IMG/VR virus record: IMGVR_UViG_3300045988_183505
Span: 63,428 to 127,427 of that record
Direction: 5' to 3' (one strand)
Length of the DNA stretch: 64,000 bases
DNA from: a virus
This document shows, piece by piece, positions 1 to 45,153 of this stretch (positions are counted from its first letter, which is position 1; each line of letters begins with the position of its first letter). A program made the position numbers and the translations under genes. The notes below the pieces were generated by a model. The model was not told the origin of the DNA, did not search any database, and saw nothing but the letters and a program-made list of their open reading frames with translations.

Positions 1-2
1 CA

Positions 3-31941: not shown

Positions 31942-31953
31942 CGCTCCTTTGTT

Positions 31954-32172
31954 TTACTTCTGGTCAATGGTCGGTCTTTCTTCATAAGCGGAGCAGGTCA
32001 TCTTCATTTCTCCGCTTGTCATATCAATGTTTGTGGTCTTCGGGATTGTACAAAGGCACATTACATTGTTCTTTCCATGTTGCGAAATAACCATTCCGTT
32101 GTTCATGAGAAGAACCGTGTCGCCACTTGAAACATTCGCCCATTTACATTTTTTACAATTCACATTGAACAC
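31954..32172 (-). CDS. hypothetical protein
   Basis: 72-aa ORF in the array. Confidence 0.45.
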   Translation of the reverse strand: MFNVNCKKCKWANVSSGDTVLLMNNGMVISQHGKNNVMCLCTIPKTTNIDMTSGEMKMTCSAYEERPTIDQK

Positions 32173-32638
32173 CCCTTATATTCATTTTTGCACCGCAGTA
32201 CGGACAATACGGCGTTTTCACGATTGCAGTGAAAAAACTTCCGCAATGTCCACACACCAGAAAGTTTCCCATGAGTGTTTCACGCCGTTCCCATTTTGCA
32301 TGAATCACAGGCTGAATATCTTCCACCGCTGCATTGTCTATCTGTTCCAGTATCTCCAAATCATTGGGGTAAAACTTGCGTATCACAGCTTTCAGCTTGT
32401 CAACGTCAATATACCGGACAGTCTTGTCTTCATACGGTTCAAGGATTTTAGCAAACGGAGAATTTTCAAGAAAAGAATTGTCGTCATCTTCGTCCTCTGG
32501 TAGCACTTCACCAGAAACGACTTCATAATAGCAGTCTGCCCTGCCATAAAGGTCTGCCTTTCGTGTAATCTTGATTACATTTCCAGTGTATCGGCAGTTG
32601 CCACCAACCCTATACTTTTTGCCAACCTCAATTTTCAT
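32153..32638 (-). CDS. zinc-ribbon hypothetical protein
   Basis: The ATG at 32638 follows AAGGAGAG. C-terminal CGHCGS...CPYCGAKM. Confidence 0.55.
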   Translation of the reverse strand: MKIEVGKKYRVGGNCRYTGNVIKITRKADLYGRADCYYEVVSGEVLPEDEDDDNSFLENSPFAKILEPYEDKTVRYIDVDKLKAVIRKFYPNDLEILEQIDNAAVEDIQPVIHAKWERRETLMGNFLVCGHCGSFFTAIVKTPYCPYCGAKMNIRGVQCEL

Positions 32639-32837
32639 GTGCTTTCTCTCCTTCATCTTCCAAGGCACTTACAGCCGGAGCATTGGCAATATCATCAATC
32701 ACCTTTTCCAGAAGCTTTATTCGTGCATCTGCACACTTCGCTTCTTCTCCTGCTAAAGCATTACGGAACGCCATCAGCCGTTTCAGCAATGCCTTTTCCT
32801 TTTCCAGCAGCTTTTCTGCATCAATATACTTACTCAT
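32628..32837 (-). CDS. hypothetical coiled-coil protein
   Basis: 69-aa ORF in the array. Confidence 0.5.
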   Translation of the reverse strand: MSKYIDAEKLLEKEKALLKRLMAFRNALAGEEAKCADARIKLLEKVIDDIANAPAVSALEDEGEKAHEN

Positions 32838-32861
32838 TTTTCTTTCTCCTTTAATGTCACT

Positions 32862-33191
32862 TTACGCATTCGCTACAGCTTTCGCCCAGCTTGTCACATC
32901 TGCGATGCACAAGTTTGCTTCTCTCAGTGAGAACTCTGCATGGTATGCAGGAGCATTTGCTTTTGTTTCTCCACCGAAGAAGTGTTCCTTTGCAAGCAGG
33001 CGGTAAACGTCATCTCGCTTCTCAACGTGACACAGAAACATCTTCCTCTCTGCATCTACGTCCATGTAAATCATGATGTCCTCGCACCGTCTGACAGCAT
33101 CTTCAATCCGCTTGCTGTTGCTTTTTGTGATAACGAATTTTCCCAGAGTGTTCCGGTACATATACAATACATTTTTCACACGATTGCTCAT
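32862..33191 (-). CDS. hypothetical protein
   Basis: The ATG at 33191 (MSNRVKN) lies downstream of cassette B. The ORF-track start at 33305 would run through the promoter. Confidence 0.55.
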   Translation of the reverse strand: MSNRVKNVLYMYRNTLGKFVITKSNSKRIEDAVRRCEDIMIYMDVDAERKMFLCHVEKRDDVYRLLAKEHFFGGETKANAPAYHAEFSLREANLCIADVTSWAKAVANA

Positions 33192-33224
33192 ACGATTCAC
33201 GCCTTTCTCTCGGTGTCTTAACGA

Positions 33225-33303
33225 CCTTACATATACTATTTTATCATATCTTACAGTAGATATATTGTGCTTTACTTTTCTGATTGGTAAACCTTTTGTA
33301 AAC
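33225..33303 (-). promoter_or_regulatory. class-2 promoter/operator cassette (copy B)
   Basis: Minus strand reads TTTACAAAAGGTTTAC ... CACAATATATCTACTGTAAGATA-TGATAAAAT ... TATGTAAGG. Confidence 0.65.
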
Positions 33304-33322
33304 ATCGGAAATTGCAGTGTAA

Positions 33323-33709
33323 TTATGATTCGCTGTACCCATTGTTTTTCAAGAAAGAGTTTGCAACGTCTTCCTGATTCTCAAATAACAAATGCGGTCT
33401 TAGACAAGGCTCTGCATAAGGGACATTGAGTTCGATTGTTGTATCTTCGTCCACTTTCTTTATCTTTGAAATGATAAAATCGAAATCGTCATAACAGCAA
33501 TCTCTGAACAAAAGAGATGGTTCTCCTCGAAACAATTCCATACAGCCAACATTCACCAAGCCATAATCACTATCCATGTGTACCCCATATATCTTTGACT
33601 TTTTAATGTTTGGATATAGCAACAGAATACGATTATGCTTCTTTTCAGCATAATGCGTTTTATATCCATTTTCTCGGTAAAGGCTTTCTATTCTTCTGAA
33701 CGTATTCAT
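33323..33709 (-). CDS. hypothetical protein
   Basis: The ATG at 33709 (MNTFRRIE) follows AAAGGAA. Confidence 0.55.
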   Translation of the reverse strand: MNTFRRIESLYRENGYKTHYAEKKHNRILLLYPNIKKSKIYGVHMDSDYGLVNVGCMELFRGEPSLLFRDCCYDDFDFIISKIKKVDEDTTIELNVPYAEPCLRPHLLFENQEDVANSFLKNNGYSES

Positions 33710-33802
33710 GTTTTTCCTTTCTGAACGATGCAATGTGTGCTGGCAAATAAAAAGTGGAATAAATGCTATGTGCATCACTCCACTTCTCGTGCTTTCGTAT
33801 TC

Positions 33803-34606
33803 TCAAAAAAGTTGAATGTGTTTCAGTCCTTTTTCAATGTCAAAGTCCGGATAAGGCTCTCTCTTACTCAGATTCCGGAGCAGGTCTTCACATTCCAGAA
33901 TGTTGTTCATAAGAACCGACACATCTTCCTTCAATTCTGCCAACAGCTGATTGGGAGATGCTTCTCTCCATTCGCCCCACCGTTGGCAAGGGTTACGGTC
34001 TATTTCAGAATGGTCTTTTCTGCCGTAGGTGTCTGTCGCAATAGCGATTCTCTCAGCAATTTCAGCAACAGTCTTATCACCCTCATTGGCTACAGAATAA
34101 TTGACTGCAAAGCTATTTGTCTGTGCTGTGTTCTCCTCAGAGAATGCAAGGCGGTCTGCTGCCAGTCTGCAATTCCAGTCATCATTGTCGAAAGAACCAC
34201 GCTTTTTTGCTCTCTTAAATCGAACTTCTTCTGATGCGTTTACTCGCACTACAAAGCAATCATACTTTCCGAAGTAGGAAACATAATCCTTTGCTCCCTG
34301 CACATCTACGACAGCCACATATTCCTGCTCTGGATTCAGCTGCATTTTAGGCGTTCCATAATATCTGACATCTTCTTTACCATTCCAAATCGTGTTACAG
34401 GAGCGATACTCAAAGAATCGTCCCTCAGTGATACCTTTTTCAAATTCCTTTCTGGAGATAAAGTTGTAGTCCTTGCCGTTGACCTCTCCCTTACGCATCG
34501 GACGTGTAGTGGTTGTCACGATTTCACGGAATCCGTGATTCGCAACCAGTTCTCTCAGAATTGCATCTTTGCCACTTGCAGACATTCCTATCAGTATCGT
34601 CAACAT
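33803..34606 (-). CDS. guanylate-kinase-like nucleotide kinase with a C-terminal extension
   Basis: P-loop GMSASGKD followed by TTTTRPMRKGEVNGKDYNFISRKEFE, the GK signature TTRxxRxGExxGxDYxF. About 80 extra C-terminal residues. Confidence 0.7.
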   Translation of the reverse strand: MLTILIGMSASGKDAILRELVANHGFREIVTTTTRPMRKGEVNGKDYNFISRKEFEKGITEGRFFEYRSCNTIWNGKEDVRYYGTPKMQLNPEQEYVAVVDVQGAKDYVSYFGKYDCFVVRVNASEEVRFKRAKKRGSFDNDDWNCRLAADRLAFSEENTAQTNSFAVNYSVANEGDKTVAEIAERIAIATDTYGRKDHSEIDRNPCQRWGEWREASPNQLLAELKEDVSVLMNNILECEDLLRNLSKREPYPDFDIEKGLKHIQLF

Positions 34607-34665
34607 AAATCATTCCACCTTTTTATTTGTTCCTTACCGTTGGTTTTCGTTTGTTTTCGTTTCTT

Positions 34666-35250
34666 TCAGACATGAAATTCAGTCTTTACAAGCCAGTATG
34701 TTTCAGCCTTTTTCAAATTTTTCTCACGCTCTGCACGTTCCATGCTACGACGCTTATCAATCAAGACAATTGCTTTTTCTTTCAATGCCTTGATTCTTTT
34801 CTGTGTTGTTTCCGGTCTGAGGTCTTTTCTGCATACCGGACAAATATTCGGACAAATATTCGACCGCAGATATTTCAGTGCAATTTTTGAACCGCAGTTC
34901 TTACAGCCAACAGTTGCACTCTTATGATTTCCAAAATGAAACGCTTCGTTCAATGTACGATAAGCCACAATTGCCTGTCTTGCCTTTTCTGTAGTGTTTT
35001 CCAGAGCCTTGGAAGGCACGAAGTCATTCTGATACTTGAACTGAACCGCAACCTGTCTGTAAAAGCCACCCAGATTATTCAGATATTTCTCGGCATCTTC
35101 TCTGCTGTCAAAGCAACGATTCTGCCACTCGATGCTTGTGATTGGCTCATGGTAATCACCGTCACGTTCTGCACGAGCAGAAACCATTGCAAGAATCCGT
35201 TCTTTGCTTGTTGTCACCTTAAAATCGTCATGATGAATTTCGTGTCCCAT
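34666..35250 (-). CDS. hypothetical protein with a zinc ribbon
   Basis: 194 aa with CKNCGS...CPNICPVC. First gene after promoter f. Confidence 0.55.
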   Translation of the reverse strand: MGHEIHHDDFKVTTSKERILAMVSARAERDGDYHEPITSIEWQNRCFDSREDAEKYLNNLGGFYRQVAVQFKYQNDFVPSKALENTTEKARQAIVAYRTLNEAFHFGNHKSATVGCKNCGSKIALKYLRSNICPNICPVCRKDLRPETTQKRIKALKEKAIVLIDKRRSMERAEREKNLKKAETYWLVKTEFHV

Positions 35251-35300
35251 AATTCAAAACTCCTTATTTTTTGTTTGGTTTCTTGTACCTTACATATATT

Positions 35301-35329
35301 ATTATAGCATTCTGTATAGCCGTTGTCAA
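35301..35329 (-). promoter_or_regulatory. class-1 consensus promoter (copy f)
   Basis: Minus strand reads TTGACA-ACGGCTATACAGAATGC-TATAAT, then ATATGTAAGG. Confidence 0.75.
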
Positions 35330-35408
35330 TACATTACAAGCAAATAACGAGTTTTTCTGCATTTTTCACAAATATCAACTTTTTGATTTGTATATACATT
35401 TTTCCAAG

Positions 35409-35438
35409 AAAAAACCACCAGCAGATTTTGCCGGTGGT
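35409..35438 (-). terminator. Rho-independent terminator after the dockerin gene
   Basis: Minus-strand RNA reads ACCACCGGC-aaaaucu-GCUGGUGGU + UUUUU(U), with one G.U pair. Confidence 0.7.
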
Positions 35439-35475
35439 CTTCTCTCTATTGAATTTTTGTAGGGTATGTCTTAAA

Positions 35476-38400
35476 TCACTTCGTCACAGGCAAGGTGTCG
35501 ATGTAACGAACCAAGAACTGCAACAGTGCGGTTGCATCATTGGAATCAATCTTATCATCAGAGAAAGTGTTTGCATTGATTGCAGCCTGTCCCTTCAAAG
35601 TGATAGTGCCGATTACTGCCTTATTGAGCATAACTGCATCTGTAAGATTTACCTTTCCGTCCAAGTTCAAATCGCCATACAGCGTATTCTTCGGAACATC
35701 AGTGCCTGTTGCCGTGGTTGTTGTGCCAGAGCCTGCTCCGCTGTTGTCTGTGGAAGATGCCGTGGTGGTATCTGAACCGTTTCCAGAACCGCTTGTACCT
35801 GTTGTACCAGTGCCAGAACCATTGCCTGTTCCAGCGGTGGTCACACTGCCACTTGTGGTAGTTGCACTGCCATTGCCAGAGGATTGGTCTGTACCTGTTC
35901 CTGTAGCTGTGCTGTCGCTGTCCACAGTGGACGAAGTAACGTCAGTCGTAGAAACAGTCGTCTCTGTTCCAGAGCCGCTTACAGAGGATTCTGAACCGCC
36001 TGTGGCTGTTGTCACGGTGGTGGTTGTCTGCTTCGGAGAAGCATTGATTACCAGCGTACCAGTTACCTTGTCATAGTTATCATCATCGGGAGTATATTCC
36101 CATGTCAGAGTATTGTCGCCTTCGGTCAGCTTCTTTACCTCATCGACTACCCATGAAACAGAACCGCTCGGTGTGTCCTTACCCAGAATCAGGTCAGGCA
36201 GGTCATCTCCAGCTTCGTAGTCCTTGTCCGGAACACTTACTTCAACATTCGGGACTGCCTTTTTCACACGGAATGTCACATTCAGCTCCAGCTGAGAGCC
36301 ATTTCCGGCGGTGATTGTGATTCTTGCCTTTGTCTGTCCCACTTCTGTCGGCGTACCGGAGAGAACACCATCTTCCAATGTGATTCCCTTCGGCAGACCA
36401 GAGCCGGTTTTTGTAGTGCTTGTTGCGACCGGAACTTCCGGAGCAGGCTGATTTTCGGACAGTTCAATAGATTTGATACCGCCCACTTTACCAGCATTGC
36501 CGATATAGCTTCTCAAATCAATATCTTCCATCGGCACATTGTAGGTCAGGTCTACTGCTGCCACACCAGACTTTCCGTTTGCCCATTCCATCATCGGAGT
36601 ATCGCCGTTGTCCATATCGTCAATGTCAACATCTCTGTAGTCGCTGGTAAAAGAACCGATTGTAACATCTGTGACATCGTAGTCGTCATTACCGCCGTCC
36701 AGCTCAACCAGTGCGGTAACAGTATAATCACCTACCGGCAGCAGGACATCATAGTTTCCGTCCTTTACAGCATAGCAAGTGCCGCCGTCCGCATAAGCAT
36801 CAGCCGGAGAAGCATATTTGCTGTCGTAAAAGTATAAGATACCTCGGTTGTCGCCTTGGTCTTCTTTGAACGGCTTATATGCGTTCAGGTCTGTAAAGCT
36901 TTTCAGACGTACCCGAACAAGGTCTGTACCATCTGCCAGCTCATAAGTGCAGTCCGGAAGGAACAGCAGCTTGTCACTTCCACCTTCGGTTGTGACATCT
37001 ACGACCGGAGCATCTTTGCAATCACGCTTTTCTTCTGAAAGAACCTCGTAGTTGCCATCGCCGTCCAGATAATCCGTAGACACTTCACGAATATCCTGCA
37101 AGCCAGAATAAGACAGCAGCTTGTAGTCAGCATCGTGTGTAACAAACGCCATCTTACCGCCGACAAATTCAACAAAATAGTCGTTGCTTTCGCCATCGAA
37201 CATTTTCTTCGCTGTATCAGCTCCATATGTTCCGGTAGCATCAACTGTCAGGTCTCCAGAATCGACATTGCTGATAATCGGATATTTGTAGTCTTCCTTT
37301 GCAGTGTACAGTTCCTGCAAGCCGGTGATATAATCGCCGTTTCCCTTTGCCTTAGAAGAATCCATTTCAGAAGCAGGTGTACGGCTTGCCAGTTTATCTG
37401 TGATTGCATAGAAATTGTCAACCACATCAATCTTACCGGTATCATCACTTACCAGCTTGTCAATATCTGTAGACCGAATGATGTTGCCGTACTCTGTCTG
37501 ATTATCCGTAACAGGATTTGTCAGTCCCAGCTCACGATAATAATTATCGTAGCCAAATAAAGATACGATGTCATAAATCATTCCGGATTCATGCTGCGTA
37601 CTCGGATTCAGCTTGCTGTCAATGATACTGGACATAACAGCACCAGCAATCAAATATCCAGAGGAATCAAAAATCTGCGGCGAATGGTTCGCCGAGTAAA
37701 CCTCGCCTTCGGTTTCACCATCCATATATTCCGACTTCATCGTAAAATCCGCATTGTAATAAGTCCCCTTCGGGAGAGCGATTGCATAACCACCCTTTAC
37801 CGTATACGATGTTCCGGTAGTCGGCAAAATCTGTGTAAGTGTCATATCCTTCATCTTCGGAGAAGCATATGCCAGATTGAAGTCGTTTTCTGTCACACTT
37901 GTAACATTGCCGTTGCTGTCCGCAACATACTTGTAAAAGGTTCTGTCCCCGATTGCATGGGGCATACCCGACAGGTCAAACATATCCAGCAAAAGGCTTT
38001 TGCCGTTGATAACCGTTACAGGCTTGCCCTTATACATCTTGATGCGACAATTGGTACTCGTAGTGAAATACCCAGTCAGCTCTCTGCCTTCTTCTCCGGT
38101 AATCGCATAGAACTCATTGGTTGCAGTGCTGTCCGTGATTCCGGAAACATCGACCGGAATAATGCAGGAAGTATCAACTGTTGTCACCTGCGGTGAGTAA
38201 TTGCCGTTCTGCTTTACGATTCTTATGCTAATCAAGGGGCTGCCAACTGCTGTGCCGCCATGTGGTTCAGCATAAACCACACTGTAGCCTGCGTTGTACA
38301 TCTCGCCGAGAACCGAATTGCAGATAAGACGATTTGTAACTACCGCCTTGTACTTCTTGAAGTCTCCAGTCGTGACGAGAGAAAAGCCGATGCTCTTGGT

Positions 38401-38664
38401 GTTACCGGCTACATTCGTATCACTGTAGGAATACTTCTCCAGATTGTTGGCAAACGCCGTGTTGGGCAGTACCAGATTGATTTCCGTATCACTGAACGTA
38501 TACACGGTTTCGCTCAGCTTCTGTGTCTGCTTCTGCGAAATGTTTGTGCCTGTCACTGCACTGTTTACTGCACTCGCTGAAAGACTAGCAGTTCCAGTTG
38601 CCATACAAGCCACGGCGGTCAGTAAAGCCACATATGACTTTACCTTTCTGTGATTTGTCTTCAT
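35476..38664 (-). CDS. large secreted protein with an Ig-like repeat, a Thr/Ser/Gly linker and a C-terminal type-I dockerin
   Basis: Signal peptide after the ATG at 38664. He_PIG-like GITLEDGVLSGTPTEVG. Long TS/G-rich linker. C-terminus GDLNLDGKVNLTDAVMLNKAV ... DDKIDSNDATALLQFLV gives two dockerin Ca-binding repeats. Confidence 0.85.
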   Translation of the reverse strand: MKTNHRKVKSYVALLTAVACMATGTASLSASAVNSAVTGTNISQKQTQKLSETVYTFSDTEINLVLPNTAFANNLEKYSYSDTNVAGNTKSIGFSLVTTGDFKKYKAVVTNRLICNSVLGEMYNAGYSVVYAEPHGGTAVGSPLISIRIVKQNGNYSPQVTTVDTSCIIPVDVSGITDSTATNEFYAITGEEGRELTGYFTTSTNCRIKMYKGKPVTVINGKSLLLDMFDLSGMPHAIGDRTFYKYVADSNGNVTSVTENDFNLAYASPKMKDMTLTQILPTTGTSYTVKGGYAIALPKGTYYNADFTMKSEYMDGETEGEVYSANHSPQIFDSSGYLIAGAVMSSIIDSKLNPSTQHESGMIYDIVSLFGYDNYYRELGLTNPVTDNQTEYGNIIRSTDIDKLVSDDTGKIDVVDNFYAITDKLASRTPASEMDSSKAKGNGDYITGLQELYTAKEDYKYPIISNVDSGDLTVDATGTYGADTAKKMFDGESNDYFVEFVGGKMAFVTHDADYKLLSYSGLQDIREVSTDYLDGDGNYEVLSEEKRDCKDAPVVDVTTEGGSDKLLFLPDCTYELADGTDLVRVRLKSFTDLNAYKPFKEDQGDNRGILYFYDSKYASPADAYADGGTCYAVKDGNYDVLLPVGDYTVTALVELDGGNDDYDVTDVTIGSFTSDYRDVDIDDMDNGDTPMMEWANGKSGVAAVDLTYNVPMEDIDLRSYIGNAGKVGGIKSIELSENQPAPEVPVATSTTKTGSGLPKGITLEDGVLSGTPTEVGQTKARITITAGNGSQLELNVTFRVKKAVPNVEVSVPDKDYEAGDDLPDLILGKDTPSGSVSWVVDEVKKLTEGDNTLTWEYTPDDDNYDKVTGTLVINASPKQTTTTVTTATGGSESSVSGSGTETTVSTTDVTSSTVDSDSTATGTGTDQSSGNGSATTTSGSVTTAGTGNGSGTGTTGTSGSGNGSDTTTASSTDNSGAGSGTTTTATGTDVPKNTLYGDLNLDGKVNLTDAVMLNKAVIGTITLKGQAAINANTFSDDKIDSNDATALLQFLVRYIDTLPVTK

Positions 38665-38721
38665 TGGACATAATCTCCTTTGCAAAAAAGATTTTAGGCT
38701 TTATTCAGCCATTATTTGATT

Positions 38722-38769
38722 GGAACGCTGTGGAATTGAACCACTTTGAGGCAGCTACCCTCGCATTCC
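38722..38769 (-). ncRNA. 48-nt tRNA-like minihelix (acceptor + T-arm + one hairpin) in the leader of the dockerin gene
   Basis: Minus strand reads GGAATGC | GAGG-GTAGCTG-CCTC | AAA | GTGG-TTCAATT-CCAC | A | GCGTTCC. The T-loop TTCAATT is canonical. There is no D arm and no CCA. Confidence 0.3.
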
Positions 38770-38792
38770 GTCCTTCAAAGGAGATGTTTTCC

Positions 38793-39047
38793 TTAAAGAA
38801 TCACCGGCTGTTCCATCTGCTCCATCGTTTGTATCAAATGATTTCTTCCGTAGTGTTCTACACATTCTCTGCAAATATTATACTTGCCGAGAATCTTTAT
38901 CCAGCCTCGCTCTTTTGCAGAAATTTCCATATCTTGTCTGCTTGAACAATCTGGCATTCGAGTACCACAAGTGATAAGATAAGTTCCGCAGCTATCACAG
39001 TACAATGTTGTTTGGCACTGAAATCCCATAAACTTCACCTCACTCAT
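38793..39047 (-). CDS. small zinc-ribbon protein
   Basis: 84 aa with CDSCG ... CREC. Confidence 0.55.
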   Translation of the reverse strand: MSEVKFMGFQCQTTLYCDSCGTYLITCGTRMPDCSSRQDMEISAKERGWIKILGKYNICRECVEHYGRNHLIQTMEQMEQPVIL

Positions 39048-39060
39048 TTTTGCTGTTTTT

Positions 39061-39069
39061 ATTATAACA
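39061..39069 (-). promoter_or_regulatory. extended -10 promoter element
   Basis: Minus strand reads TGTTATAAT (TGnTATAAT), ~14 nt upstream of the start at 39047, which leaves little room for a leader. No good -35. Confidence 0.4.
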
Positions 39070-39126
39070 AGTCCAAATAAAACAAAATGTATATCCGTCC
39101 ATTCATCAAAATATTTCCGAAAAAAA

Positions 39127-39160
39127 GAAAACAGCCTATGCTTTTTCTACGCACAGACTG
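39127..39160 (-). terminator. Rho-independent terminator after the LRR-dockerin gene
   Basis: Minus-strand RNA reads CAGUCUGUGC-loop-GCAUAGGCUG + UUUUC. Two G.U pairs make it minus-strand specific. Confidence 0.7.
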
Positions 39161-39192
39161 ATTTCTTTGAAGTTATTTTAATTTATGGCTGT

Positions 39193-41307
39193 TTATTCTG
39201 TCACCGGCAAAGAAGTGATTGTGTGAACCAAGAACCGCAGCAATGTTGTTGCATCGTTGCCATCAAGATTACCGTCTGCATAGCACTCCGCATTATCCTT
39301 TGCCTGCTCATTCAACACAACAGAGCCTGCGATTGACTTGTTCAGCAGAACAGCATCAGAGATGTCCACTCTGCCGTCCAGCGTAACATCGCCCAGCAGA
39401 ATTGTACCACTGCTGCCCTGTGTGGTTACTGTAGTGGTGGTTGTGGAAGAACCCTGTCCTGTGGTGCTGGTGGTCGTTGTGCCACCGTCCAGAGCAACGA
39501 ACGGAATGTTGTTCGCAGTAGCATATGCTTCTACAGTAGAACCTGTATAACCATACAGTGTCAGGTTATCGCAACTACCAAATGCTTTGTTCTCAATCAT
39601 AATATCTGTTCTGGTAATCTTAGCTTCTCGCAATCCGGTATTCACAAATGCGTATTTTCCAATGAATGTAACATTAGAAAAATCAAAAGATTCCAGCTGT
39701 CGGCAGCTGGAAAACTGACCGCCGTTCAATCTGAGTTCTCCGTCTCCATAGGTCTTTACAGTTGTGAGATTGTACATACTTGTAAATTCTATATTTGCAG
39801 AACAGTTTACGCCCTTTTTCCCAAGCTCGAACGGTCGTTCTGTGTTGTTCATGTACAGCTCCAATGTTGAAGAAATTTTATTTCCATCTTCATCAGAAGT
39901 TGCTGTCATAATATCATCAAAAGCACCTTCATACCATTGGCTATCGTCATATACACCCAGCTTCAAGGATTCCAGTTCGGCACAATTCTTGAAAGCTTCG
40001 TTGTCAAAAAGGTGTGCAGAAGTTAAGTCCAAGCTTTTCAATTTATAGCAATTCACGAAAGCTTCTCTGCCGAAGCCAAGAGCGTTGCCAACATTGACCT
40101 TCGTCAGGTTTTCACAATAAGAGAAGTTTCCGTCACTATAATACAGCTCACCATTTCCGACTACTTCAAAAGTGTTCAGCAATCTATCTTCACGTTCAAA
40201 GTCATCAGGGAGAACATAAGCGTCCTCATTGTTGGTGTAAATCGTCATCGAATACGGCTTGACGTTTCCTTCACTTTTTTGTCTTCGTCCAAACGCATAT
40301 TCTCCTATTTCCAGCTTATCGTTCAGGGCAATTTGAATATCGTTTGCACTTGTGCAGCCAAGAAAAGCAGCATCGCCAATGTACCGCAGATTTTTGTTCT
40401 TCAACTGAATCTCTGACAGCTGTGTACAGCCTTCAAACGCATCATCAGCAACAACAACAACATGAGAGAAGTCAAAATTTCTCAGCATAGTGTTGTTCCG
40501 AAACGCCATGTTTCCGATGCCGACTTCTCCGTCACCTTCAAAGCGTACTTCACGGATTCTGTTGCTGTCATAAAATCCACTTGAAATTGTCATCATGTTG
40601 CTTTTATTCATGTTGAGTTGGAAGGTCAAAACGAATGCCGTTCCAGCAAACGAATCCCCTTCGCCAAAAATATGCTGACCTATGCCGTTAAGCTGTGCTG
40701 CTTCACAGTTTTTATCAGTAATACTGATTGTGACATCTTCCAGAGAAGAACAGCCACTGAACGCTTCGCTGCCAACACACCCCAGTTTCGTATTTGTCAG
40801 ATTTACAGTCGTCAGCTTTTCACAGCCCATAAATGCGTAATCTAACATATCTACGATTTTCTCAAAAGCCACAGTTTTCAAGCGAGAACAGCCGTGAAAT
40901 GCGTCCTTGTAGAGTACCATTTCTTCATTTTCAAAGTCTACGGACTTCAAATTAGTGCAGTTCGCAAATGCGGCTTCGCCAATAAATTTCACATCTTCTG
41001 CCAGCGTCAGACTGACGTTTTCCAGTTCACGGAATGCTTCTGTAGTGCCAGTCACAGTATAATTACCGTCACCATTATCTTCAAACGTAAAGTAATCTGT
41101 CTGACTGGTATCACACTGTACCTCTATAGGAACATTTGTAGTGGCTTCTACAAGCACAGGTGCTGTATCAGATACAGTAGTGTCACCGTCTGTTACAACA
41201 ACATCACTTGCAGTAAGGTCTACCGCCCACGCAGTCATCGGCAACGCCTGTACACACATGACACCAGCCAACAGTAAACCTGCTGCCGTTCGTTTCAACT
41301 TCTTCAT
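39193..41307 (-). CDS. BspA-type leucine-rich-repeat surface protein with a C-terminal type-I dockerin
   Basis: Signal peptide. Many repeats of the form IGxxAFxxCxxLxxV. Thr-rich linker. C-terminus GDVTLDGRVDISDAVLLNKSI ... ADGNLDGNDATTLLRFLV. The ATG at 41307 lies 9 nt after AAAGGA. Confidence 0.85.
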   Translation of the reverse strand: MKKLKRTAAGLLLAGVMCVQALPMTAWAVDLTASDVVVTDGDTTVSDTAPVLVEATTNVPIEVQCDTSQTDYFTFEDNGDGNYTVTGTTEAFRELENVSLTLAEDVKFIGEAAFANCTNLKSVDFENEEMVLYKDAFHGCSRLKTVAFEKIVDMLDYAFMGCEKLTTVNLTNTKLGCVGSEAFSGCSSLEDVTISITDKNCEAAQLNGIGQHIFGEGDSFAGTAFVLTFQLNMNKSNMMTISSGFYDSNRIREVRFEGDGEVGIGNMAFRNNTMLRNFDFSHVVVVADDAFEGCTQLSEIQLKNKNLRYIGDAAFLGCTSANDIQIALNDKLEIGEYAFGRRQKSEGNVKPYSMTIYTNNEDAYVLPDDFEREDRLLNTFEVVGNGELYYSDGNFSYCENLTKVNVGNALGFGREAFVNCYKLKSLDLTSAHLFDNEAFKNCAELESLKLGVYDDSQWYEGAFDDIMTATSDEDGNKISSTLELYMNNTERPFELGKKGVNCSANIEFTSMYNLTTVKTYGDGELRLNGGQFSSCRQLESFDFSNVTFIGKYAFVNTGLREAKITRTDIMIENKAFGSCDNLTLYGYTGSTVEAYATANNIPFVALDGGTTTTSTTGQGSSTTTTTVTTQGSSGTILLGDVTLDGRVDISDAVLLNKSIAGSVVLNEQAKDNAECYADGNLDGNDATTLLRFLVHTITSLPVTE

Positions 41308-41347
41308 GTCATCTTGTCCTTTCAAAGTATCTATCTAATTTGTTTTT

Positions 41348-41380
41348 ATAAAAGCTGGAGAATGGTGCATCATTTCCAGC
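41348..41380 (-). terminator. bidirectional hairpin terminator
   Basis: GCTGGAGAATG-gtgcat-CATTTCCAGC flanked by an A-run and a T-run. Confidence 0.6.
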
Positions 41381-41433
41381 GTTTTACCTCAGTTGATTTG
41401 TCAGTAAATATACTGACTTTTCACTGTTTTCTG

Positions 41434-41571
41434 TTACTTATTTTTGATGTCAATGCGAACACTCACATCTGCCTTTGGCTTGTAGACAATTACGCCGTCC
41501 TTTTCCAAGCGTTCAGTTTCGCCAGCCTTTACAGCTTCGATTGCTTTCATGAGCCAAACCATGTCAATCAT
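41434..41571 (-). CDS. small hypothetical protein (45 aa)
   Basis: ATGA start/stop overlap with the upstream gene. Sequence MIDMVWLMKAIEAVKAGETERLEKDGVIVYKPKADVSVRIDIKNK. Below the ORF-track cutoff. Confidence 0.45.
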   Translation of the reverse strand: MIDMVWLMKAIEAVKAGETERLEKDGVIVYKPKADVSVRIDIKNK

Positions 41572-42206
41572 ACTCCGCACTTCCTTTCCAAATAGATTGA
41601 TTGAATTTCTACGCCTTTTTCCAGCCTCGGCAGCAGGACGTTTCTCACTTCCTGCACAGCTTCTCTTGCCAGCTTTTCAGCTTCTTCCTTTCGTGAGAGT
41701 GTGTCCGTATGTTTTCCCAGCTTGCTGACAGGAAACGGAATAAGTTCTCCATTCGCCAGCTGCACATTGACAAAGAAAATGTACTGAATCGCCACGCTGT
41801 CGAAAATCATACCTTCCTGAATCTGTTCCTCAAAAGAAAGTGTTTCTCTCCAAGGAAACGATTTTACAAGGCGATATACGCCATGTTTCCAATACGATTT
41901 CGGACTGTACGGTTCAAACATGAAAATGCTTTCGCTTTTCAGCCGATGCAATTCTGCCCGAACTTTCTTCGGATTCAGACTGCTTCGAGCAGATGCGATT
42001 TTCTTGACGGTTTTGTCATCTGCATCGTCTATCAGATAAATCGTGCCGTCTTCATTTCTGGAACAATTCCGGAAAATTTCTGCTGTTACCTGAAAGCAAA
42101 ACTTGCCGTCACAGCTGTCGTGCATGGCTTCTGTAATATCCAGATAACCGCCGTCCTTCATGGCAACATACTTTCCTTCAAACCAGTTTGATGATTTCTT
42201 TTTCAT
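41568..42206 (-). CDS. hypothetical protein
   Basis: 212-aa ORF in the array. Confidence 0.6.
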   Translation of the reverse strand: MKKKSSNWFEGKYVAMKDGGYLDITEAMHDSCDGKFCFQVTAEIFRNCSRNEDGTIYLIDDADDKTVKKIASARSSLNPKKVRAELHRLKSESIFMFEPYSPKSYWKHGVYRLVKSFPWRETLSFEEQIQEGMIFDSVAIQYIFFVNVQLANGELIPFPVSKLGKHTDTLSRKEEAEKLAREAVQEVRNVLLPRLEKGVEIQSIYLERKCGV

Positions 42207-42274
42207 GCTTAACCTCTTATTTGTGTGCTTGTGGGATTTGCGAATGATTGGAGCAGTCAGACAATGTAACGTCC

Positions 42275-42330
42275 TTTGGAATTTTCATGATATAAGATAT
42301 ATAGCAAATCAATTGAACAATATGATAACT
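42275..42330 (-). promoter_or_regulatory. degenerate class-2 cassette (copy G)
   Basis: Minus strand reads TTTGCTATATATCTTATATCATGAAAAT. It resembles copies C and F, but the palindrome is shortened by ~6 nt. Confidence 0.35.
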
Positions 42331-42408
42331 CTTTGCGAACAGCAAAAACCCCTTGTAAGTTATCATTTTGCCGTTGATTATTCGCTCGTCCGCAGGAAAT
42401 GCCACGTT

Positions 42409-42867
42409 TTATTTTGCGGAATACAGCTTATGCTTGTCCGAAAAATTCATGAGCCATTCATGAGCCATTTTTTCTGCTTCATCAAACGTGTTGCCTGTTA
42501 CTTTAAGGAAAATTGCTCGCTTGTGAAGTAGTGTACTCAGCAGAACATTATCTCTGTCTGCATCGTTGCTGACAGTATACCACTGTCCGGATTTACCGAA
42601 ATACACAATGTATTCTCGCTTTTCCACTCCGTTATCAGAAGTTGTTTCCACAGAAAGAATGTCGTTCTCAAAGATTGGATTGTCGCTCCGGTCTTGAAAT
42701 CCGGTATACTGGCTCACGGTTTCTCCGCAAACCACATAATCGGTGTCGTCCTTGCCACGAATGAAGTGCTGTACAGACTTTCCGGTTAAAAAGTTCTCCT
42801 TGTAATAGTAGCCTTCTACCCATTTTCTGTTGCTTTCTCGCTTTGCCTTAAATAAAATCTCTCTCAT
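42409..42867 (-). CDS. YopX-family phage protein (paralog 1 of 3)
   Basis: MREILFKAKRESNRKWVEGYYY... N-terminus, shared with 44310-44717 and 44736-45140. Confidence 0.7.
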   Translation of the reverse strand: MREILFKAKRESNRKWVEGYYYKENFLTGKSVQHFIRGKDDTDYVVCGETVSQYTGFQDRSDNPIFENDILSVETTSDNGVEKREYIVYFGKSGQWYTVSNDADRDNVLLSTLLHKRAIFLKVTGNTFDEAEKMAHEWLMNFSDKHKLYSAK

Positions 42868-42902
42868 GACAGGTCAGCTCCTTTGGTTTCTTATTGCCTT
42901 TA

Positions 42903-42981
42903 CCTTACATATACTATTTTATCATATCCGCTGTAAGATATATTGTGCTTTGCATTTCGGAAATGAAAACAATCTGTAAAT
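42903..42981 (-). promoter_or_regulatory. class-2 promoter/operator cassette (copy C)
   Basis: Minus strand reads TTTACAG ... CACAATATATCTTACAGCGGATA-TGATAAAAT ... TATGTAAGG. Confidence 0.6.
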
Positions 42982-43424
42982 CACAATTCTTTGCCTGTTT
43001 CATTGCTGATAATCACAATCACCTTTGGATTATCACTATACCATTTTTCTACGGAAAGAGAGGTGATTTGCTTGTCGTCCGGATAAGCGATACCATTCAG
43101 ACCATCACAAATGATTTTTGCAATATTGTCTGCATCGCACTTCTTCAACGGACGGATTTTCCCTTGCAGCATTGCTTCACGTTTCACCCTGCTTGTTGAT
43201 TTGGGGATTCCAAAATGGGCAATGATTTCTACACGGATTGCATCACTCTCAGAGAACCGGAAGCCACGGCTGACCGCCTTGTAGCACCAACCAACTTGTG
43301 TTTCATAGTCCTTGGTTTCTGTCGGCGTGTAAGTGCTACCTTTACCGAATCTCGGTCTGCCTTTCCCCTTTGGTTCACCATCAATCTTAAATGAGATTTT
43401 TGTAATGAAAATACCTTCTTTCAT
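42981..43424 (-). CDS. rusA: RusA-family Holliday-junction resolvase
   Basis: PKGKGRPRF..TYTP..T..YE and CDADNIAKIICDGLNGIAYPDDKQI, the RusA catalytic Asp cluster. Confidence 0.85.
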   Translation of the reverse strand: MKEGIFITKISFKIDGEPKGKGRPRFGKGSTYTPTETKDYETQVGWCYKAVSRGFRFSESDAIRVEIIAHFGIPKSTSRVKREAMLQGKIRPLKKCDADNIAKIICDGLNGIAYPDDKQITSLSVEKWYSDNPKVIVIISNETGKEL

Positions 43425-43441
43425 TAAGAATTTTCAGAAAT

Positions 43442-43476
43442 AAAAAAACAGAATGTATTTTTCAACATTCTGTTTT
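43442..43476 (-). terminator. bidirectional Rho-independent terminator
   Basis: CAGAATGT-atttttca-ACATTCTG flanked by A7 and T4. Confidence 0.7.
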
Positions 43477-43534
43477 GAGGGGAGATGCAGTGAAGCCACT
43501 GCATTTTTATTATATCTCGCCTGACGTAGATGCG

Positions 43535-44188
43535 TCAAACGCTTCTTCGCTGCCTTGAAAAAGCGGAACGTTCAAATCCGTATTGGCAGTATGTACAAGT
43601 GAACTGCAAGAACAACTCTCGCAGCAGTGAAGCCGGAGTATCTGCAAAACCTTTTTCACGGCTCATTTTGTAAAGCGTTCTGGACAGTTCAAACAAATCG
43701 CAAGAAGCTTCTGTATCTCCCAGAATCTTTTTTGCCCAAGAAATTTTATTTCCTTCATGTCCTCTGAATGGTTCACACCATTTCAAATAAAACTCTCTGT
43801 CATCAATATTCTTTGTGGCGTGGTTATAAATGCTCACCATTCTATTGTATGCCTCGAAGCATAGCTGACTTACCAGAGCGTTCCAGTTATTGTAACTGAT
43901 AGTTTCTGTGCATTGACGCATCAGCTTATAGATGAAATCGTCCTTCGGGTTCTGAGCTGGAGCAGACTGTTCCTGATTCTTCTGATAAGAGCAGGAATCA
44001 TCGCTGGCATTCTCAAATGCCATGACCAGTTTCAGGTCGTTGCCGTCTTTCCGGTAAAATCCTGCACTGATACCCTCACAGTCCAGATAGAGCAACGGTT
44101 CACACTTAAAGCCCTTACCGTTCAGAGATTTTCTCTGATACCACTTACCACTCTCCAGCTTCACCTTGCTTGTTACTTTACAAATCAT
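43535..44188 (-). CDS. hypothetical protein
   Basis: The ATG at 44188 (MICKVTSK) follows AAAGAGG. The ORF track starts at 44266. Confidence 0.55.
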   Translation of the reverse strand: MICKVTSKVKLESGKWYQRKSLNGKGFKCEPLLYLDCEGISAGFYRKDGNDLKLVMAFENASDDSCSYQKNQEQSAPAQNPKDDFIYKLMRQCTETISYNNWNALVSQLCFEAYNRMVSIYNHATKNIDDREFYLKWCEPFRGHEGNKISWAKKILGDTEASCDLFELSRTLYKMSREKGFADTPASLLRELFLQFTCTYCQYGFERSAFSRQRRSV

Positions 44189-44309
44189 ACTGTACCTCTT
44201 TCTGCTTGTTTTGCTTCGTGATAGCTTATTGCCAAAGTTTATGCTTTTGCAGGCTGCTGCAAGCATTGGACACCACCTCTTTCAGCCTGCTGTACCTGTT
44301 GTGAAGTTT

Positions 44310-44717
44310 TTATCCTAACAATTCTGGATTATCCACAATATTTCCAAGGACTTCTACATCTTCTCCATTTATATTTGACATGAAGTCAACCACGAATGTC
44401 GATGCCTTCACGACAAAACCACCGTTCTCATATGTTATGACACCTCGTTCTTCATTTTCGGTCAATATATCTACGATGTCGCCTTCAAAAATTTTCTTTC
44501 CGGTTTCGTCAAGTACACCTGTAAACTGCTGTACAGTCTTTGAAATGACCGGATAAGCTATGCAGCTTCCGGTTTCTTTTTCTTCATCATACGATGATAC
44601 GAAAATATGAGGCTCTAAAAAGCCACTAAACTGGTTAGGATATTTGCAGAAATATCCTTCAACCCATTCTCCTGTATCAGCTCTTTTGCCTCTGAATAAA
44701 ATGGCATCAATTTTCAT
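44310..44717 (-). CDS. YopX-family phage protein (paralog 2)
   Basis: MKIDAILFRGKRADTGEWVEGYF... Confidence 0.7.
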   Translation of the reverse strand: MKIDAILFRGKRADTGEWVEGYFCKYPNQFSGFLEPHIFVSSYDEEKETGSCIAYPVISKTVQQFTGVLDETGKKIFEGDIVDILTENEERGVITYENGGFVVKASTFVVDFMSNINGEDVEVLGNIVDNPELLG

Positions 44718-44735
44718 AAATCGTGTTACACTCCT

Positions 44736-45140: not shown

Positions 45141-45153
45141 AAAAAAACTTCCT

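What the first reader, a model, noticed from the sequence alone, without database searches (positions are those of the whole stretch)
35476..41307. Phage-borne dockerin proteins: a 1062-aa Ig-repeat protein and a 704-aa BspA-type LRR protein
Seen in sequence: both proteins have signal peptides, Thr/Ser-rich linkers and C-terminal duplicated Ca-binding dockerin segments (DxNxDGxxxxxD ... DA..LL.FLV).

Established knowledge: type-I dockerins plug into cohesins of cellulosome/amylosome scaffoldins in Ruminococcus/Clostridia.

Inference: a temperate phage supplies cargo that is displayed on the host's cohesin scaffold. This could be lysogenic conversion of the cell surface, adhesion or superinfection exclusion, or it could mask cohesin-bearing receptors. 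Each gene has its own terminator, and the downstream gene has a tRNA-like minihelix in its leader, consistent with moron-like units.
Basis: partly seen in the sequence, partly recalled or inferred. Interest (0 to 1): 0.7.

Follow-up and report, generated by a model that had tools for sequence, protein, structure and literature searches.

The report
Dockerin-tailed adhesins on a conjugative element
Two secreted proteins with genuine dockerin "plug" tails are real, but they are carried by a ~128-kb conjugative element of the gut bacterium Coprococcus eutactus, not by a phage, and no matching cohesin "socket" has been found.

Summary
Both genes exist as described: A (35476-38664, minus strand, 1062 aa) and B (39193-41307, minus strand, 704 aa). 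Each has a signal peptide, a Thr/Ser-rich linker and a C-terminal type I dockerin. Pfam passes the dockerins only marginally, but a profile of the family's dockerins matches solved dockerins at E 5.6e-11. B is a BspA-type LRR protein. A is mostly an orphan domain followed by a short Ig/cadherin-like stalk, so it is not an "Ig-repeat protein".

The carrier is not a phage. The host is Coprococcus eutactus (Lachnospiraceae). The window spans the attP junction of a ~128-kb integrative conjugative element. On the same contigs that carry B, this element encodes a tyrosine integrase, a Mob_Pre relaxase, a coupling protein, a VirB4-like ATPase, PrgI and a topoisomerase. No virion gene was found.

A and B occur as deeply divergent allele classes. 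The ectodomains fall to 41-51% identity, while signal peptide, linker, dockerin and flanking genes stay 83-100% identical. Within a class, selection is purifying.

No cohesin is encoded on the element, and I could not test for host cohesins. The nearest dockerins outside the family are ruminococcal. The most likely role is dockerin-tethered surface adhesins carried as conjugative-element cargo.

The parts
35476..38664 (-). Gene A, 1062 aa. Signal peptide residues 1-31, orphan domain 32-745, Ig/cadherin-like modules ~746-877, T/S/G linker 878-991, type I dockerin 992-1062.
   Evidence: ORF. Domain map. Exhaustive HMMER. AF2 and Foldseek. No PDB sequence relative for residues 32-745.
35479..35691 (-). 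Dockerin module of A. First loop is DLNLDGKVNLTD. Second loop is NTFSDDKIDSND, with an aromatic residue at ligand position 3.
   Evidence: Pfam PF00404 23.0 bits against gathering cut-off 22.9. Family profile against solved dockerins, E 5.6e-11. dN = 0 in three within-class comparisons.
36430..38571 (-). Orphan N-terminal ectodomain of A (residues 32-745).
   Evidence: Among 1.84 billion representative proteins, only 3-4 clusters are related (P0257 56%, P0256 50%, P0341 36%, P0347 partial). AF2 pLDDT is below 50 for most of it.
39193..41307 (-). Gene B, 704 aa. Signal peptide 1-27, BspA-type LRR (LRR_5) ~90-600, T/S linker ~601-634, type I dockerin 635-704. Identical to RGS43525.1 (DWX94_04195) of Coprococcus eutactus.
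   Evidence: Nearest solved LRRs are 4fs7, 4gt6, TpLRR and PcpA.
39196..39405 (-). Dockerin module of B. Loops are DVTLDGRVDISD and ECYADGNLDGND.
   Evidence: Pfam 25.5 bits. Profile against solved dockerins. 83-100% conserved across B alleles whose LRR region is only 51% identical.
35406..35446 (-). Intrinsic terminator after A.
   Evidence: dG -27.4 kcal/mol, z -6.45, followed by a U-run.
39124..39168 (-). Intrinsic terminator after B.
   Evidence: dG -21.5 kcal/mol, z -3.8, followed by a U-run.
41348..41387 (-). Terminator-like hairpin plus U-run immediately upstream of B's ribosome-binding site. It ends the preceding unit and leaves no room for an obvious sigma-70 promoter for B.
   Evidence: The promoter scan shows no strong site between the hairpin and the start codon.
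38665..38795 (-). Structured 5' leader of A. The ribosome-binding site AAGGAGA pairs with an upstream UCUCCUUU. It contains the T-loop-like hairpin GUGGUUCAAUUCCAC.
   Evidence: dG -42.5, z -4.2. The motif is kept in the 51%-identical A allele with one compensatory pair change. No tRNA and no Rfam family.
38793..39047 (-). 84-aa Cys-rich small ORF between B and A. In other allele backgrounds four different ORFs take its place.
   Evidence: No Pfam or PHROG hit.
5453..5529 (.). Attachment-site core (attP in this window). The stretch is shared by the 'integrase arm | host' and 'host | accessory arm' junctions.
   Evidence: Contigs L012-L014 match window 1-5529. Contigs L015-L020 match 17730 down to 5453-5462.
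4134..5306 (-). Tyrosine integrase of the element.
   Evidence: phrog_1, 205 bits. PF00589.
5530..64000 (-). Part of the ~103-kb unidirectional arm of the conjugative element. It holds two NikA-like genes, an S26 signal peptidase, TraX, an AAA ATPase, a macro-domain gene, a guanylate-kinase-like gene, A, B, three YopX genes, RusA, a C5 methylase, RNase H, a PIF1/Dda helicase, lipoproteins and ERF.
35286..35340 (-). Copy of repeated promoter element D2 (TTGACA-17-TATAAT), directly after A's terminator. It is placed to drive the next gene (34666-35250).
42899..42980 (-). Copy of repeated promoter/operator-like element D1 (inverted repeat ATATCTA-N4-TAGATAT next to TGTATAAT). It heads the unit that ends just before B.

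Best explanation
A and B are accessory cargo of a ~128-kb integrative conjugative element (ICE) of Coprococcus eutactus. The window shows its excised, circular (attP) junction.

Both proteins are exported through the Sec pathway. Each presents a variable ectodomain: a BspA-type LRR solenoid in B, and an orphan domain on an Ig/cadherin-like stalk in A. A long Thr/Ser-rich spacer follows, then a Ca-binding type I dockerin.

The dockerin most likely tethers each protein non-covalently to a cohesin-type partner on a cell surface. That would make them swappable adhesins. They could promote cell-cell aggregation (mating pairs) or attachment to particles, mucus or neighbouring bacteria.

Shown:
- Gene structure and domain identities.
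- ICE identity and its boundaries.
- The allele-class (cassette) pattern with purifying selection inside each class.

Inferred:
- Surface display through a cohesin.
- An adhesin role.
For: Domains:
- establish the signal peptides, linkers, dockerins and LRR.

Host:
- names C. eutactus and Coprococcus sp. isolates for B and six other window proteins.

Element boundaries:
- define the shared ~65-77-bp att core.
- Searches place B (95.2-97.3 kb) and the integrase arm next to host FtsH/TilS (186.9-189 kb) on one 826-kb contig.

Conjugation genes on contigs that carry B or continue its arm:
- Mob_Pre relaxase.
- 852-aa P-loop_TraG/DUF87 ATPase.
- 606-aa coupling protein (T4SS-DNA_transf, TrwB_AAD_bind, TraG-D_C).
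- PrgI.
- 1913-aa membrane protein with an NlpC/P60-like end.
- Topoisomerase, HU and a RepL-like gene.
- The relaxase matches MobM 4lvi at E 2e-12.

Constraint on the anchor:
- B alleles keep signal peptide 93-100% and dockerin 83-100% identical; linker 94-97% in seven of eight alleles and 74% in the eighth; the LRR falls to 51%.
- One A allele keeps 90% dockerin identity against 41-48% in the N-terminal domain.
- DNA flanks are 95-99% identical, against ~70% or unalignable inside A.
- Within-class dN/dS is 0.07-0.25, and dockerin dN = 0 in A.

Precedent:
- Conjugative elements of Gram-positive bacteria encode adhesins needed for efficient mating (PMC8092201).
Against: - No cohesin partner has been identified. 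None is listed among the called genes of the element. None appeared in my Pfam scans or in a PDB sequence scan of its other secreted proteins.
- C. eutactus genomes could not be scanned. Both genome-collection scans returned nothing.
- Lachnospiraceae are mostly listed with 0 cohesins.
- The second Ca-binding loop has F or Y in the window's A and B (H in two other A alleles; the P0018 B allele has Leu at position 2 and Tyr at position 3) where a ligand residue is expected.
- A and B lie at least ~30 kb downstream of the transfer genes (>=23 kb of window plus 4-10 kb beyond its end), inside their own terminator-bounded units. They are not part of the transfer operon.
- No expression or localisation data exist.
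Confidence: 0.5

Rival explanations
1. One reading: morons of a temperate phage, expressed in the lysogen and displayed on the host's cellulosome- or amylosome-type cohesin scaffold. Proposed roles were lysogenic conversion, superinfection exclusion or receptor masking.
For: - Phage-typical genes lie nearby: three YopX genes, RusA, ERF and a Dda/PIF1 helicase.
- IMG/VR lists relatives as viral genomes of 131 and 145 kb, one of them assembled as a circle.
- Each gene has its own terminator.
Against: - The same contigs carry a relaxase, a coupling protein, a VirB4-like ATPase, PrgI and a topoisomerase.
- No capsid, portal, terminase or tail hit appeared anywhere: not in the window, in ~65 kb of further element sequence, or in ~77 kb of the IMG/VR relative (plus precomputed Pfam).
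- megablast and tblastn against 50,697 phage records give nothing relevant.
- The host is C. eutactus, which is not known to build cellulosomes.
Confidence: 0.03
2. Dedicated mating adhesins. A and B would be functional parts of the conjugation machinery, aggregating donor and recipient cells like PrgB of pCF10 or the thioester adhesin of pLS20. Allele classes would set mating specificity.
For: - They are carried on an ICE.
- Gram-positive conjugative elements encode adhesins required for efficient transfer.
- The adhesin-type folds fit: an LRR resembling surface proteins and PcpA, and a stalk resembling SraP, Rib and cadherins.
- Conserved anchors with variable heads fit a specificity switch.
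Against: - The genes sit at least ~30 kb from the type IV secretion block, between DNA-metabolism and accessory genes. Each is insulated by terminators.
- The content between B and A varies among backgrounds.
- No regulatory link to the transfer genes has been shown.
Confidence: 0.17
3. Cross-species docking. The dockerins are ruminococcal in type and would plug C. eutactus proteins, or whole cells, onto cohesins of neighbouring Ruminococcus species. C. eutactus would then ride on their fibre- or starch-degrading complexes.
For: - The nearest dockerins outside the family (54-68% identity) that carry names come from Ruminococcus callidus and Ruminococcus sp..
- One such hit sits after a GH9-CBM3 cellulase, next to another dockerin protein.
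- Non-cellulolytic taxa including Coprococcus are reported to colonise fibre alongside the degraders.
Against: - Cohesin-dockerin pairs are usually species-specific (own knowledge).
- 55-65% identity does not predict cross-binding.
- The dockerin search returned only short fragments, so the naming is a biased sample.
- There is no co-occurrence analysis.
Confidence: 0.1
4. Orphan dockerins. C. eutactus has no cohesin. The C-terminal modules would act only as Ca-dependent folding or stability modules, or bind some other wall component. A and B would then be released or loosely associated proteins.
For: [quoted passage not shown]
- A rumen strain whose closest 16S relative is C. eutactus (91%) has 0 cohesins and 0 dockerins.
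- No paper links C. eutactus with cohesins.
- The second Ca loop is partly degenerate.
Against: - The dockerins are the best-conserved protein parts across allele classes, and dN = 0 in A. This argues for a specific binding partner.
- Even the most distant A-like protein, at 31-35% identity in the head, keeps a 52%-identical dockerin.
Confidence: 0.2

Closest known systems
LRR-dockerin and other non-catalytic dockerin proteins of ruminococcal cellulosomes and amylosomes (R. flavefaciens, R. champanellensis, R. bromii)
   Same: - Same architecture: signal peptide, LRR_5 or other binding module, Thr/Ser-rich linker, C-terminal type I dockerin.
- Many LRR_5 + Dockerin_1 proteins appear among B's distant hits.
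- The dockerin profile matches solved R. flavefaciens and R. bromii dockerins.
   Different: - Here the genes sit on a conjugative element in a Lachnospiraceae host with no known scaffoldin.
- Neither protein has a carbohydrate-active domain.
- The heads occur as deeply divergent allele classes.
Adhesins encoded by Gram-positive conjugative elements (PrgB/aggregation substance of pCF10; thioester adhesin p34 of pLS20)
   Same: - Large secreted surface proteins encoded by a conjugative element.
- Adhesin-type folds on a stalk.
- Proposed role in cell-cell contact (PrgB from own knowledge).
   Different: - Those are anchored by LPXTG/sortase or other means and sit inside the transfer operon.
- A and B end in dockerins and sit at least ~30 kb away, in terminator-bounded units.
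- I saw no thioester motif on reading A's sequence.
Single-cohesin anchoring as proposed for Ruminococcus albus
   Same: A few dockerin proteins could be hung on the cell surface by one cohesin rather than built into a complex.
   Different: No cohesin has been shown for C. eutactus.
Virus-encoded dockerin-bearing secreted proteins proposed for putative ANME viruses (ISME J 2026, PMC13452462)
   Same: A mobile genetic element carries a signal-peptide protein next to dockerin domains, with adhesion proposed as the role.
   Different: - That case is a viral contig from archaeal consortia, and the idea is equally untested.
- Here the carrier is demonstrably conjugative.

Membership tests
Type I dockerin (Pfam PF00404) | Sequence match to the family model over the whole ~60-70-residue module | tested here: met
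   A scores 23.0 bits and B 25.5 bits against the gathering cut-off of 22.9, which is marginal. A family profile matches solved dockerins over positions 2-68 at E 5.6e-11, with 23 PDB dockerins at E<=0.01.
Type I dockerin (Pfam PF00404) | Two duplicated segments, each an EF-hand-like Ca loop (ligands at positions 1, 3, 5, 9, 12) followed by a helix | tested here: inconclusive
   First loops are complete or nearly so: A has D,N,D,N,D and B has D,T,D,D,D. Second loops keep positions 1, 5, 9 and 12 but have F/Y (A and B) or H (two A alleles) at position 3; the P0018 B allele has Leu at position 2 and Tyr at position 3 (sequence). Ca binding was not measured.
Type I dockerin (Pfam PF00404) | Binds a cognate cohesin | not testable with these tools
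   No cohesin on the element. Host genomes could not be scanned.
BspA-type leucine-rich repeat (Pfam LRR_5) | Repeated LRR_5 units above the family threshold | tested here: met
   164.9 bits against cut-off 27.7, in four stretches. PDB relatives are 4fs7 (E 1.6e-27), 4gt6 and TpLRR.
He_PIG / Ig-repeat protein | Pfam Ig-like repeat hits along the protein | tested here: not met
   Pfam reports only Dockerin_1 for A at E<=0.01. Only residues ~750-877 match Ig-like repeats of other proteins. Residues ~580-878 model as tandem beta-sandwiches.
Temperate phage / prophage | Virion and packaging genes (terminase, portal, capsid, tail) | tested here: not met
   None found in the window or in the loci that close the element (precomputed Pfam).
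Temperate phage / prophage | Similarity to known phage genomes | tested here: not met
   megablast finds no match. tblastn of A and B gives only weak LRR hits and one 5-kb metagenomic dockerin.
Integrative conjugative element | Integrase plus direct att repeats flanking the integrated copy, and a circular junction | tested here: met
   Tyrosine integrase. The shared att core is present at both junction types and inside the window. Both ends lie ~128 kb apart on one contig.
Integrative conjugative element | Relaxase | tested here: met
   451-aa Mob_Pre protein. It matches the MobM relaxase domain 4lvi at E 2.1e-12.
Integrative conjugative element | Coupling protein and type IV secretion components | tested here: met
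   606-aa protein with T4SS-DNA_transf, TrwB_AAD_bind and TraG-D_C. 852-aa P-loop_TraG/DUF87 ATPase. PrgI. 1913-aa membrane protein with an NlpC/P60-like end, the last read from its sequence. The coupling-protein/PrgI block is absent in some variants (L087).
Integrative conjugative element | Demonstrated transfer | not testable with these tools
   Needs mating experiments.
Moron-like independent unit | Own promoter and own terminator | tested here: inconclusive
   Terminators are clear. A has candidate promoters upstream of the 84-aa ORF: 39204-39175 (10 of 12 matches) and an extended -10, TGTTATAAT. B has no evident sigma-70 promoter between the upstream hairpin and its start.
Cellulosome / amylosome system | Dockerins attached to carbohydrate-active enzymes, plus a scaffoldin with cohesins | tested here: not met
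   No carbohydrate-active domain in A or B. No cohesin on the element. Host scaffoldin remains untested.

The most novel reading that the evidence does not exclude
A conjugative element spreads plug-in surface modules. These are interchangeable adhesin heads on a conserved ruminococcal-type dockerin. They would work only where a matching cohesin socket exists.

That socket could be an unrecognised single-cohesin anchor in a non-cellulosomal Lachnospiraceae. Alternatively it could be a scaffoldin of neighbouring Ruminococcus, so that C. eutactus physically docks onto another species' fibre- or starch-degrading complex.
Probability: 0.12. Interest if true: 0.8.

Novelty: new variant of a known kind. 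Interest (0 to 1): 0.45.

Why it matters
Cohesin-dockerin pairing is treated as the assembly logic of cellulosomes and amylosomes in a few Ruminococcaceae and clostridia. This case differs in three ways:
- Two well-conserved dockerins sit on non-enzymatic adhesin-like proteins.
- They are moved by a conjugative element.
- The host is an abundant butyrate-producing Lachnospiraceae with no known cohesin. Exact copies of B occur in 337 blocks of the assembly collection.

If a partner exists, cohesin-dockerin anchoring serves as a general, horizontally exchangeable surface-display system in the gut. Cell-surface adhesion specificity could then be swapped by recombination of allele cassettes.

There is also a practical warning. 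Large conjugative elements rich in ERF, RusA and YopX genes are listed as viral genomes in IMG/VR and read like prophages.

Tried and rejected
- **Host identification by genome scan.** Scans of the genome collection with B and with the RecJ-like protein found no relative. The host was identified instead from exact-sequence cluster names.
- **Hunt for virion genes.** I spent eight IMG/VR scans and one metagenome scan walking the 145-kb circular relative and the integrase arm. They yielded only DNA-metabolism and accessory genes. About 68 kb of that relative remains unseen.
- **What settled the question.** Exact-protein look-ups on the contigs that carry B.
- **Single-element versus tandem model.** I first read the integrase at 4134-5306 as the left end of a prophage with host genes to its left. 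The att analysis disproved this. I considered two separate elements in tandem. I now favour one element, because the type IV secretion genes, accessory arm and integrase arm are contiguous between one attL and one attR.
- **Structure of A.** The AF2 model of residues 32-878 has mean pLDDT 52 and the N-terminal ~550 residues are unusable. The Foldseek hits therefore speak only for the C-terminal stalk.
- **Positive selection.** Not supported. Within-class dN/dS is 0.07-0.25.
- **Negative searches.** Rfam, ARAGORN, plasmid megablast, PDB search of the 1913-aa protein and of the coupling protein.
- **Lipoprotein reading of A.** A's N-terminus fits a lipobox (LTAVAC). Other alleles have TC or VC at that position, so I did not adopt a lipoprotein reading.

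Full report
**1. The observation**

Both ORFs lie on the minus strand at the stated coordinates.
- Gene A runs from the ATG at 38664 to the stop at 35476 (1062 aa).
- Gene B runs from the ATG at 41307 to the stop at 39193 (704 aa).
- Both start codons follow GGAG-type ribosome-binding sites.
- Both proteins begin with a basic n-region, a hydrophobic core and an AxA site. I judged this by eye, as no predictor was available.
- T/S/G-rich spacers lie at A 876-991 and at B ~607-634 (composition windows 602-644).

Pfam results:
- Dockerin_1 in A: 23.0 bits. In B: 25.5 bits. The gathering score is 22.9, so both are marginal.
- LRR_5 in B: 164.9 bits.
- Nothing else in A at E<=0.01.

I aligned the C-terminal modules of seven family members and searched the profile against PDB sequences. 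It matched 23 solved dockerins over its full length. The best was C. thermocellum CelD at E 5.6e-11. Others were CelS, Xyn10B, and dockerins of R. flavefaciens and R. bromii. The dockerin call is therefore solid.

One detail needs a caveat. The first Ca loops are canonical. The second loops carry F or Y in the window's A and B (H in two other A alleles) at ligand position 3.

**2. What A and B are**

B is a typical BspA-type LRR protein.
- Its nearest solved relatives are gut-bacterial surface LRR proteins 4fs7 and 4gt6, TpLRR and PcpA.
- The LRR_5 + dockerin architecture recurs in many metagenomic proteins.

A is not an "Ig-repeat protein".
- An exhaustive HMMER search of 1.84 billion representative proteins found relatives of residues 32-745 in only three or four clusters (56%, 50%, 36%, and one partial at 33%).
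- Residues ~750-877 match Ig-like repeats of many giant proteins.
- No PDB sequence relative exists for residues 32-745.
- An AF2 model had mean pLDDT 52. Only residues ~580-878 were confident, forming tandem beta-sandwiches.
- Foldseek matched that part to protocadherin arrays, the SraP adhesin and Rib domains.
- A is therefore an orphan head on an adhesin-type stalk.

**3. Terminators and leaders**

- Strong hairpins followed by U-runs lie after A (dG -27.4, z -6.5) and after B (dG -21.5, z -3.8).
- A third hairpin lies just upstream of B.
- A perfect TTGACA-17-TATAAT promoter follows A's terminator.
- A's 131-nt leader is structured (dG -42.5, z -4.2) and pairs the ribosome-binding site with an upstream UCUCCUUU.
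- The "tRNA-like minihelix" is a T-loop-like hairpin inside that fold.
- ARAGORN finds no tRNA in the window and Rfam finds no family.
- The leader motif is kept upstream of a 51%-identical A allele, with one compensatory pair change.
- B has no evident promoter of its own.

**4. Host**

Exact-sequence look-ups name B as RGS43525.1 (DWX94_04195) of Coprococcus eutactus. UniRef calls it a "Dockerin domain-containing protein". Six other window proteins are named from C. eutactus or Coprococcus sp. MSK.21.13. The lineage is Lachnospiraceae.

The exact B sequence occurs in 337 blocks of the assembly collection, on contigs of up to 826 kb. These are mostly assemblies that appear from their sample names to be human-gut metagenomes.

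**5. The carrier is a conjugative element, not a phage**

The neighbourhood looks phage-like. It has three YopX genes, RusA, a C5 methylase, ERF and a Dda/PIF1 helicase. IMG/VR lists relatives of 131 and 145 kb, the latter with a 93-bp terminal overlap that indicates a circular assembly.

No virion gene appeared anywhere, and the junction analysis pointed elsewhere.
- Contigs with the RecJ-like gene and integrase match window 1-5529 and then continue into host genes FtsH, HPRT, TilS and SpoIIE.
- Contigs with the other arm match window 17730 down to ~5453 and then continue into host genes.
- The shared stretch 5453-5529 is therefore an att core, and the window spans attP.
- On one 826-kb contig, B lies at 95.2-97.3 kb. 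The integrase arm abuts FtsH at 187-189 kb.

On contigs that carry B, the region between the two arms encodes:
- a RepL-like protein, a topoisomerase and HU;
- a Mob_Pre relaxase;
- an 852-aa P-loop_TraG/DUF87 ATPase;
- a 1913-aa membrane protein with an NlpC/P60-like end;
- a 606-aa coupling protein (T4SS-DNA_transf, TrwB_AAD_bind, TraG-D_C);
- PrgI.

The relaxase matches MobM at E 2e-12. The other arm carries LPD1 and LPD11 polyvalent proteins.

The element measures ~128 kb from attL to attR. One ~103-kb unidirectional arm begins with the transfer genes and ends with NikA-like genes at attL. A and B lie in its distal accessory part.

The IMG/VR viral label for relatives is probably a misclassification, although ~68 kb of the circular relative was not seen.

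**6. Allele classes**

- In two IMG/VR relatives the flanking genes are 91-100% identical to the window. A is only 51% identical and B 57-96%.
- By domain, B alleles keep signal peptide 93-100% and dockerin 83-100% identical. The linker is 94-97% in seven of eight alleles and 74% in the eighth. The LRR region falls to 51%.
- One A allele keeps 90% dockerin identity against 41-48% in the head.
- Even the most distant A-like protein retains a dockerin.
- At DNA level, identity drops from 95-99% in the flanks to ~70% or unalignable inside A.
- Within an allele class, dN/dS is 0.07-0.25. The dockerin of A shows no non-synonymous change.

So these are functional genes under purifying selection, with old head variants exchanged by recombination on a conserved export-and-anchor frame. 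This is not ongoing positive selection.

**7. The missing partner**

- No cohesin is listed for any called gene of the element.
- None appeared in my Pfam scans of its other secreted proteins.
- None appeared in a PDB sequence scan of nine secreted or lipoproteins.
- I could not scan C. eutactus genomes.
- No paper links C. eutactus with cohesins.
- That survey lists a rumen strain 91% related by 16S to C. eutactus with 0 cohesins and 0 dockerins.
- The nearest named dockerins outside the family (54-61% identity) are from Ruminococcus callidus and Ruminococcus sp..
- One such dockerin follows a GH9-CBM3 cellulase.

**8. Mechanism**

The best reading is conjugative-element cargo that places variable adhesin heads on a cell surface through a dockerin-cohesin-type contact. 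The role would be either mating aggregation or niche adhesion. Gram-positive conjugative elements are known to encode adhesins needed for efficient transfer.

Strong conservation of the dockerins argues that a partner exists. Its identity is the open point.

Rivals, with my confidence in each:
- Dedicated mating adhesins: 0.17.
- Orphan dockerins without a cohesin: 0.2.
- Docking onto Ruminococcus cohesins: 0.1.
- The original phage-moron idea: 0.03.

**9. Novelty and score**

Each component is known: LRR-dockerin proteins, adhesins on conjugative elements, and dockerins without cohesins. The combination appears to be undescribed. It consists of dockerin-anchored, cassette-variable adhesins carried by a conjugative element in a non-cellulosomal Lachnospiraceae. 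I found only a speculative mention of dockerin proteins on putative archaeal viruses.

I rate it a new variant of a known kind, with interest 0.45. The phage claim fails and the key functional link (a cohesin) is untested. The system is widespread, well conserved and directly testable.

Noticed in passing
window 5453-5529 (with integrase 4134-5306): The window spans the attP junction of the element. The same ~65-77-bp core lies at both integrated junctions in other contigs. It contains a terminator-like hairpin whose host-side half varies between contigs. The host flank beside the accessory arm also differs between contigs (GH13 amylase in some, CysS in another).
   Followed up: yes
window 28653, 33221, 42899, 47032, 52779, 53994 (82 nt each) and 8952, 13613, 15986, 35286 (55 nt each): There are two families of repeated intergenic promoter-like elements, all oriented for minus-strand transcription. 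One pairs an inverted repeat (ATATCTA-N4-TAGATAT) with an extended -10. The other is a consensus TTGACA-17-TATAAT. The long arm appears cut into many units under common control. Whether these act as single-strand promoters during DNA entry was not examined.
   Followed up: partly
window 38665-38795 (minus strand): A's leader is a structured RNA that sequesters the ribosome-binding site. It is conserved upstream of a 51%-identical allele, with a compensatory C-G to U-A change. It belongs to no Rfam family. It is a candidate cis-regulatory element of unknown ligand or trigger.
   Followed up: partly
IMGVR_UViG_3300029243_000160 (loci L010, L022, L041, L042, L049, L059): This 145,208-bp contig is listed as viral. 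It has a 93-bp identical terminal overlap, so it was assembled as a circle. It carries B (96% identity), an A allele (51%), ParA/ParB and more than 77 kb of same-strand accessory genes, with no virion gene in the parts seen. It is probably a misclassified conjugative element or plasmid.
   Followed up: partly
window 59171-60265 and 60424-61602: These are two paralogous lipoproteins with Thr-rich linkers, a weak FN3-like segment and a shared C-terminal domain (motif GDYCVAM...G..F.V). The relatives carry further lipoproteins. Their function is unknown and they are not cohesin-like by sequence.
   Followed up: partly
window 62401-62538: A tandem 69-nt repeat (two copies, 80% identical) lies inside ORF 62000-62647, which has a weak RNase H match.
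   Followed up: no
window 22842-23906 and 21820-22668: A second, weak integrase-like gene (PF00589, 19.5 bits, below cut-off) sits next to a TraX-family gene in the middle of the arm. In the IMG/VR relatives its homolog lies elsewhere, which suggests internal rearrangement or a nested element.
   Followed up: no
L085 4120-9861; L009 1-4935: A 1913-aa protein has a membrane segment and an NlpC/P60-like C-terminus (motifs SCTAGNSEDFARFIY and YVIYLG) but no Pfam, PHROG or PDB hit. It lies between the VirB4-like ATPase and the coupling protein. It is probably the cell-wall-opening component of the transfer channel.
   Followed up: partly
L087/L009 versus L085/L086 versus L007/L008: Variants of the element differ just upstream of ERF. 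Some have the coupling protein and PrgI there. Some have DUF4942, ParA, ParB and a UvrD-like helicase. Some have neither. Not all copies may be self-transmissible.
   Followed up: no
L011 18062-19672; L010/L011 between B and A: In other allele backgrounds the 84-aa ORF between B and A is replaced by four ORFs (100, 75, 285 and 175 aa). A 536-aa PBECR4 nuclease-domain protein follows A. The B-A interval is a hotspot for cargo exchange.
   Followed up: no
L088 (contig ERR13983719_301): The most distant A-like protein (P0341, 962 aa, 31-35% identical head, dockerin retained) sits in a similar same-strand accessory region. That region has a topoisomerase IV-like gene, a DnaB_C gene, an AAA_14 gene and a primase zinc-ribbon gene, followed by an unannotated 1008-aa protein.
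   Followed up: no
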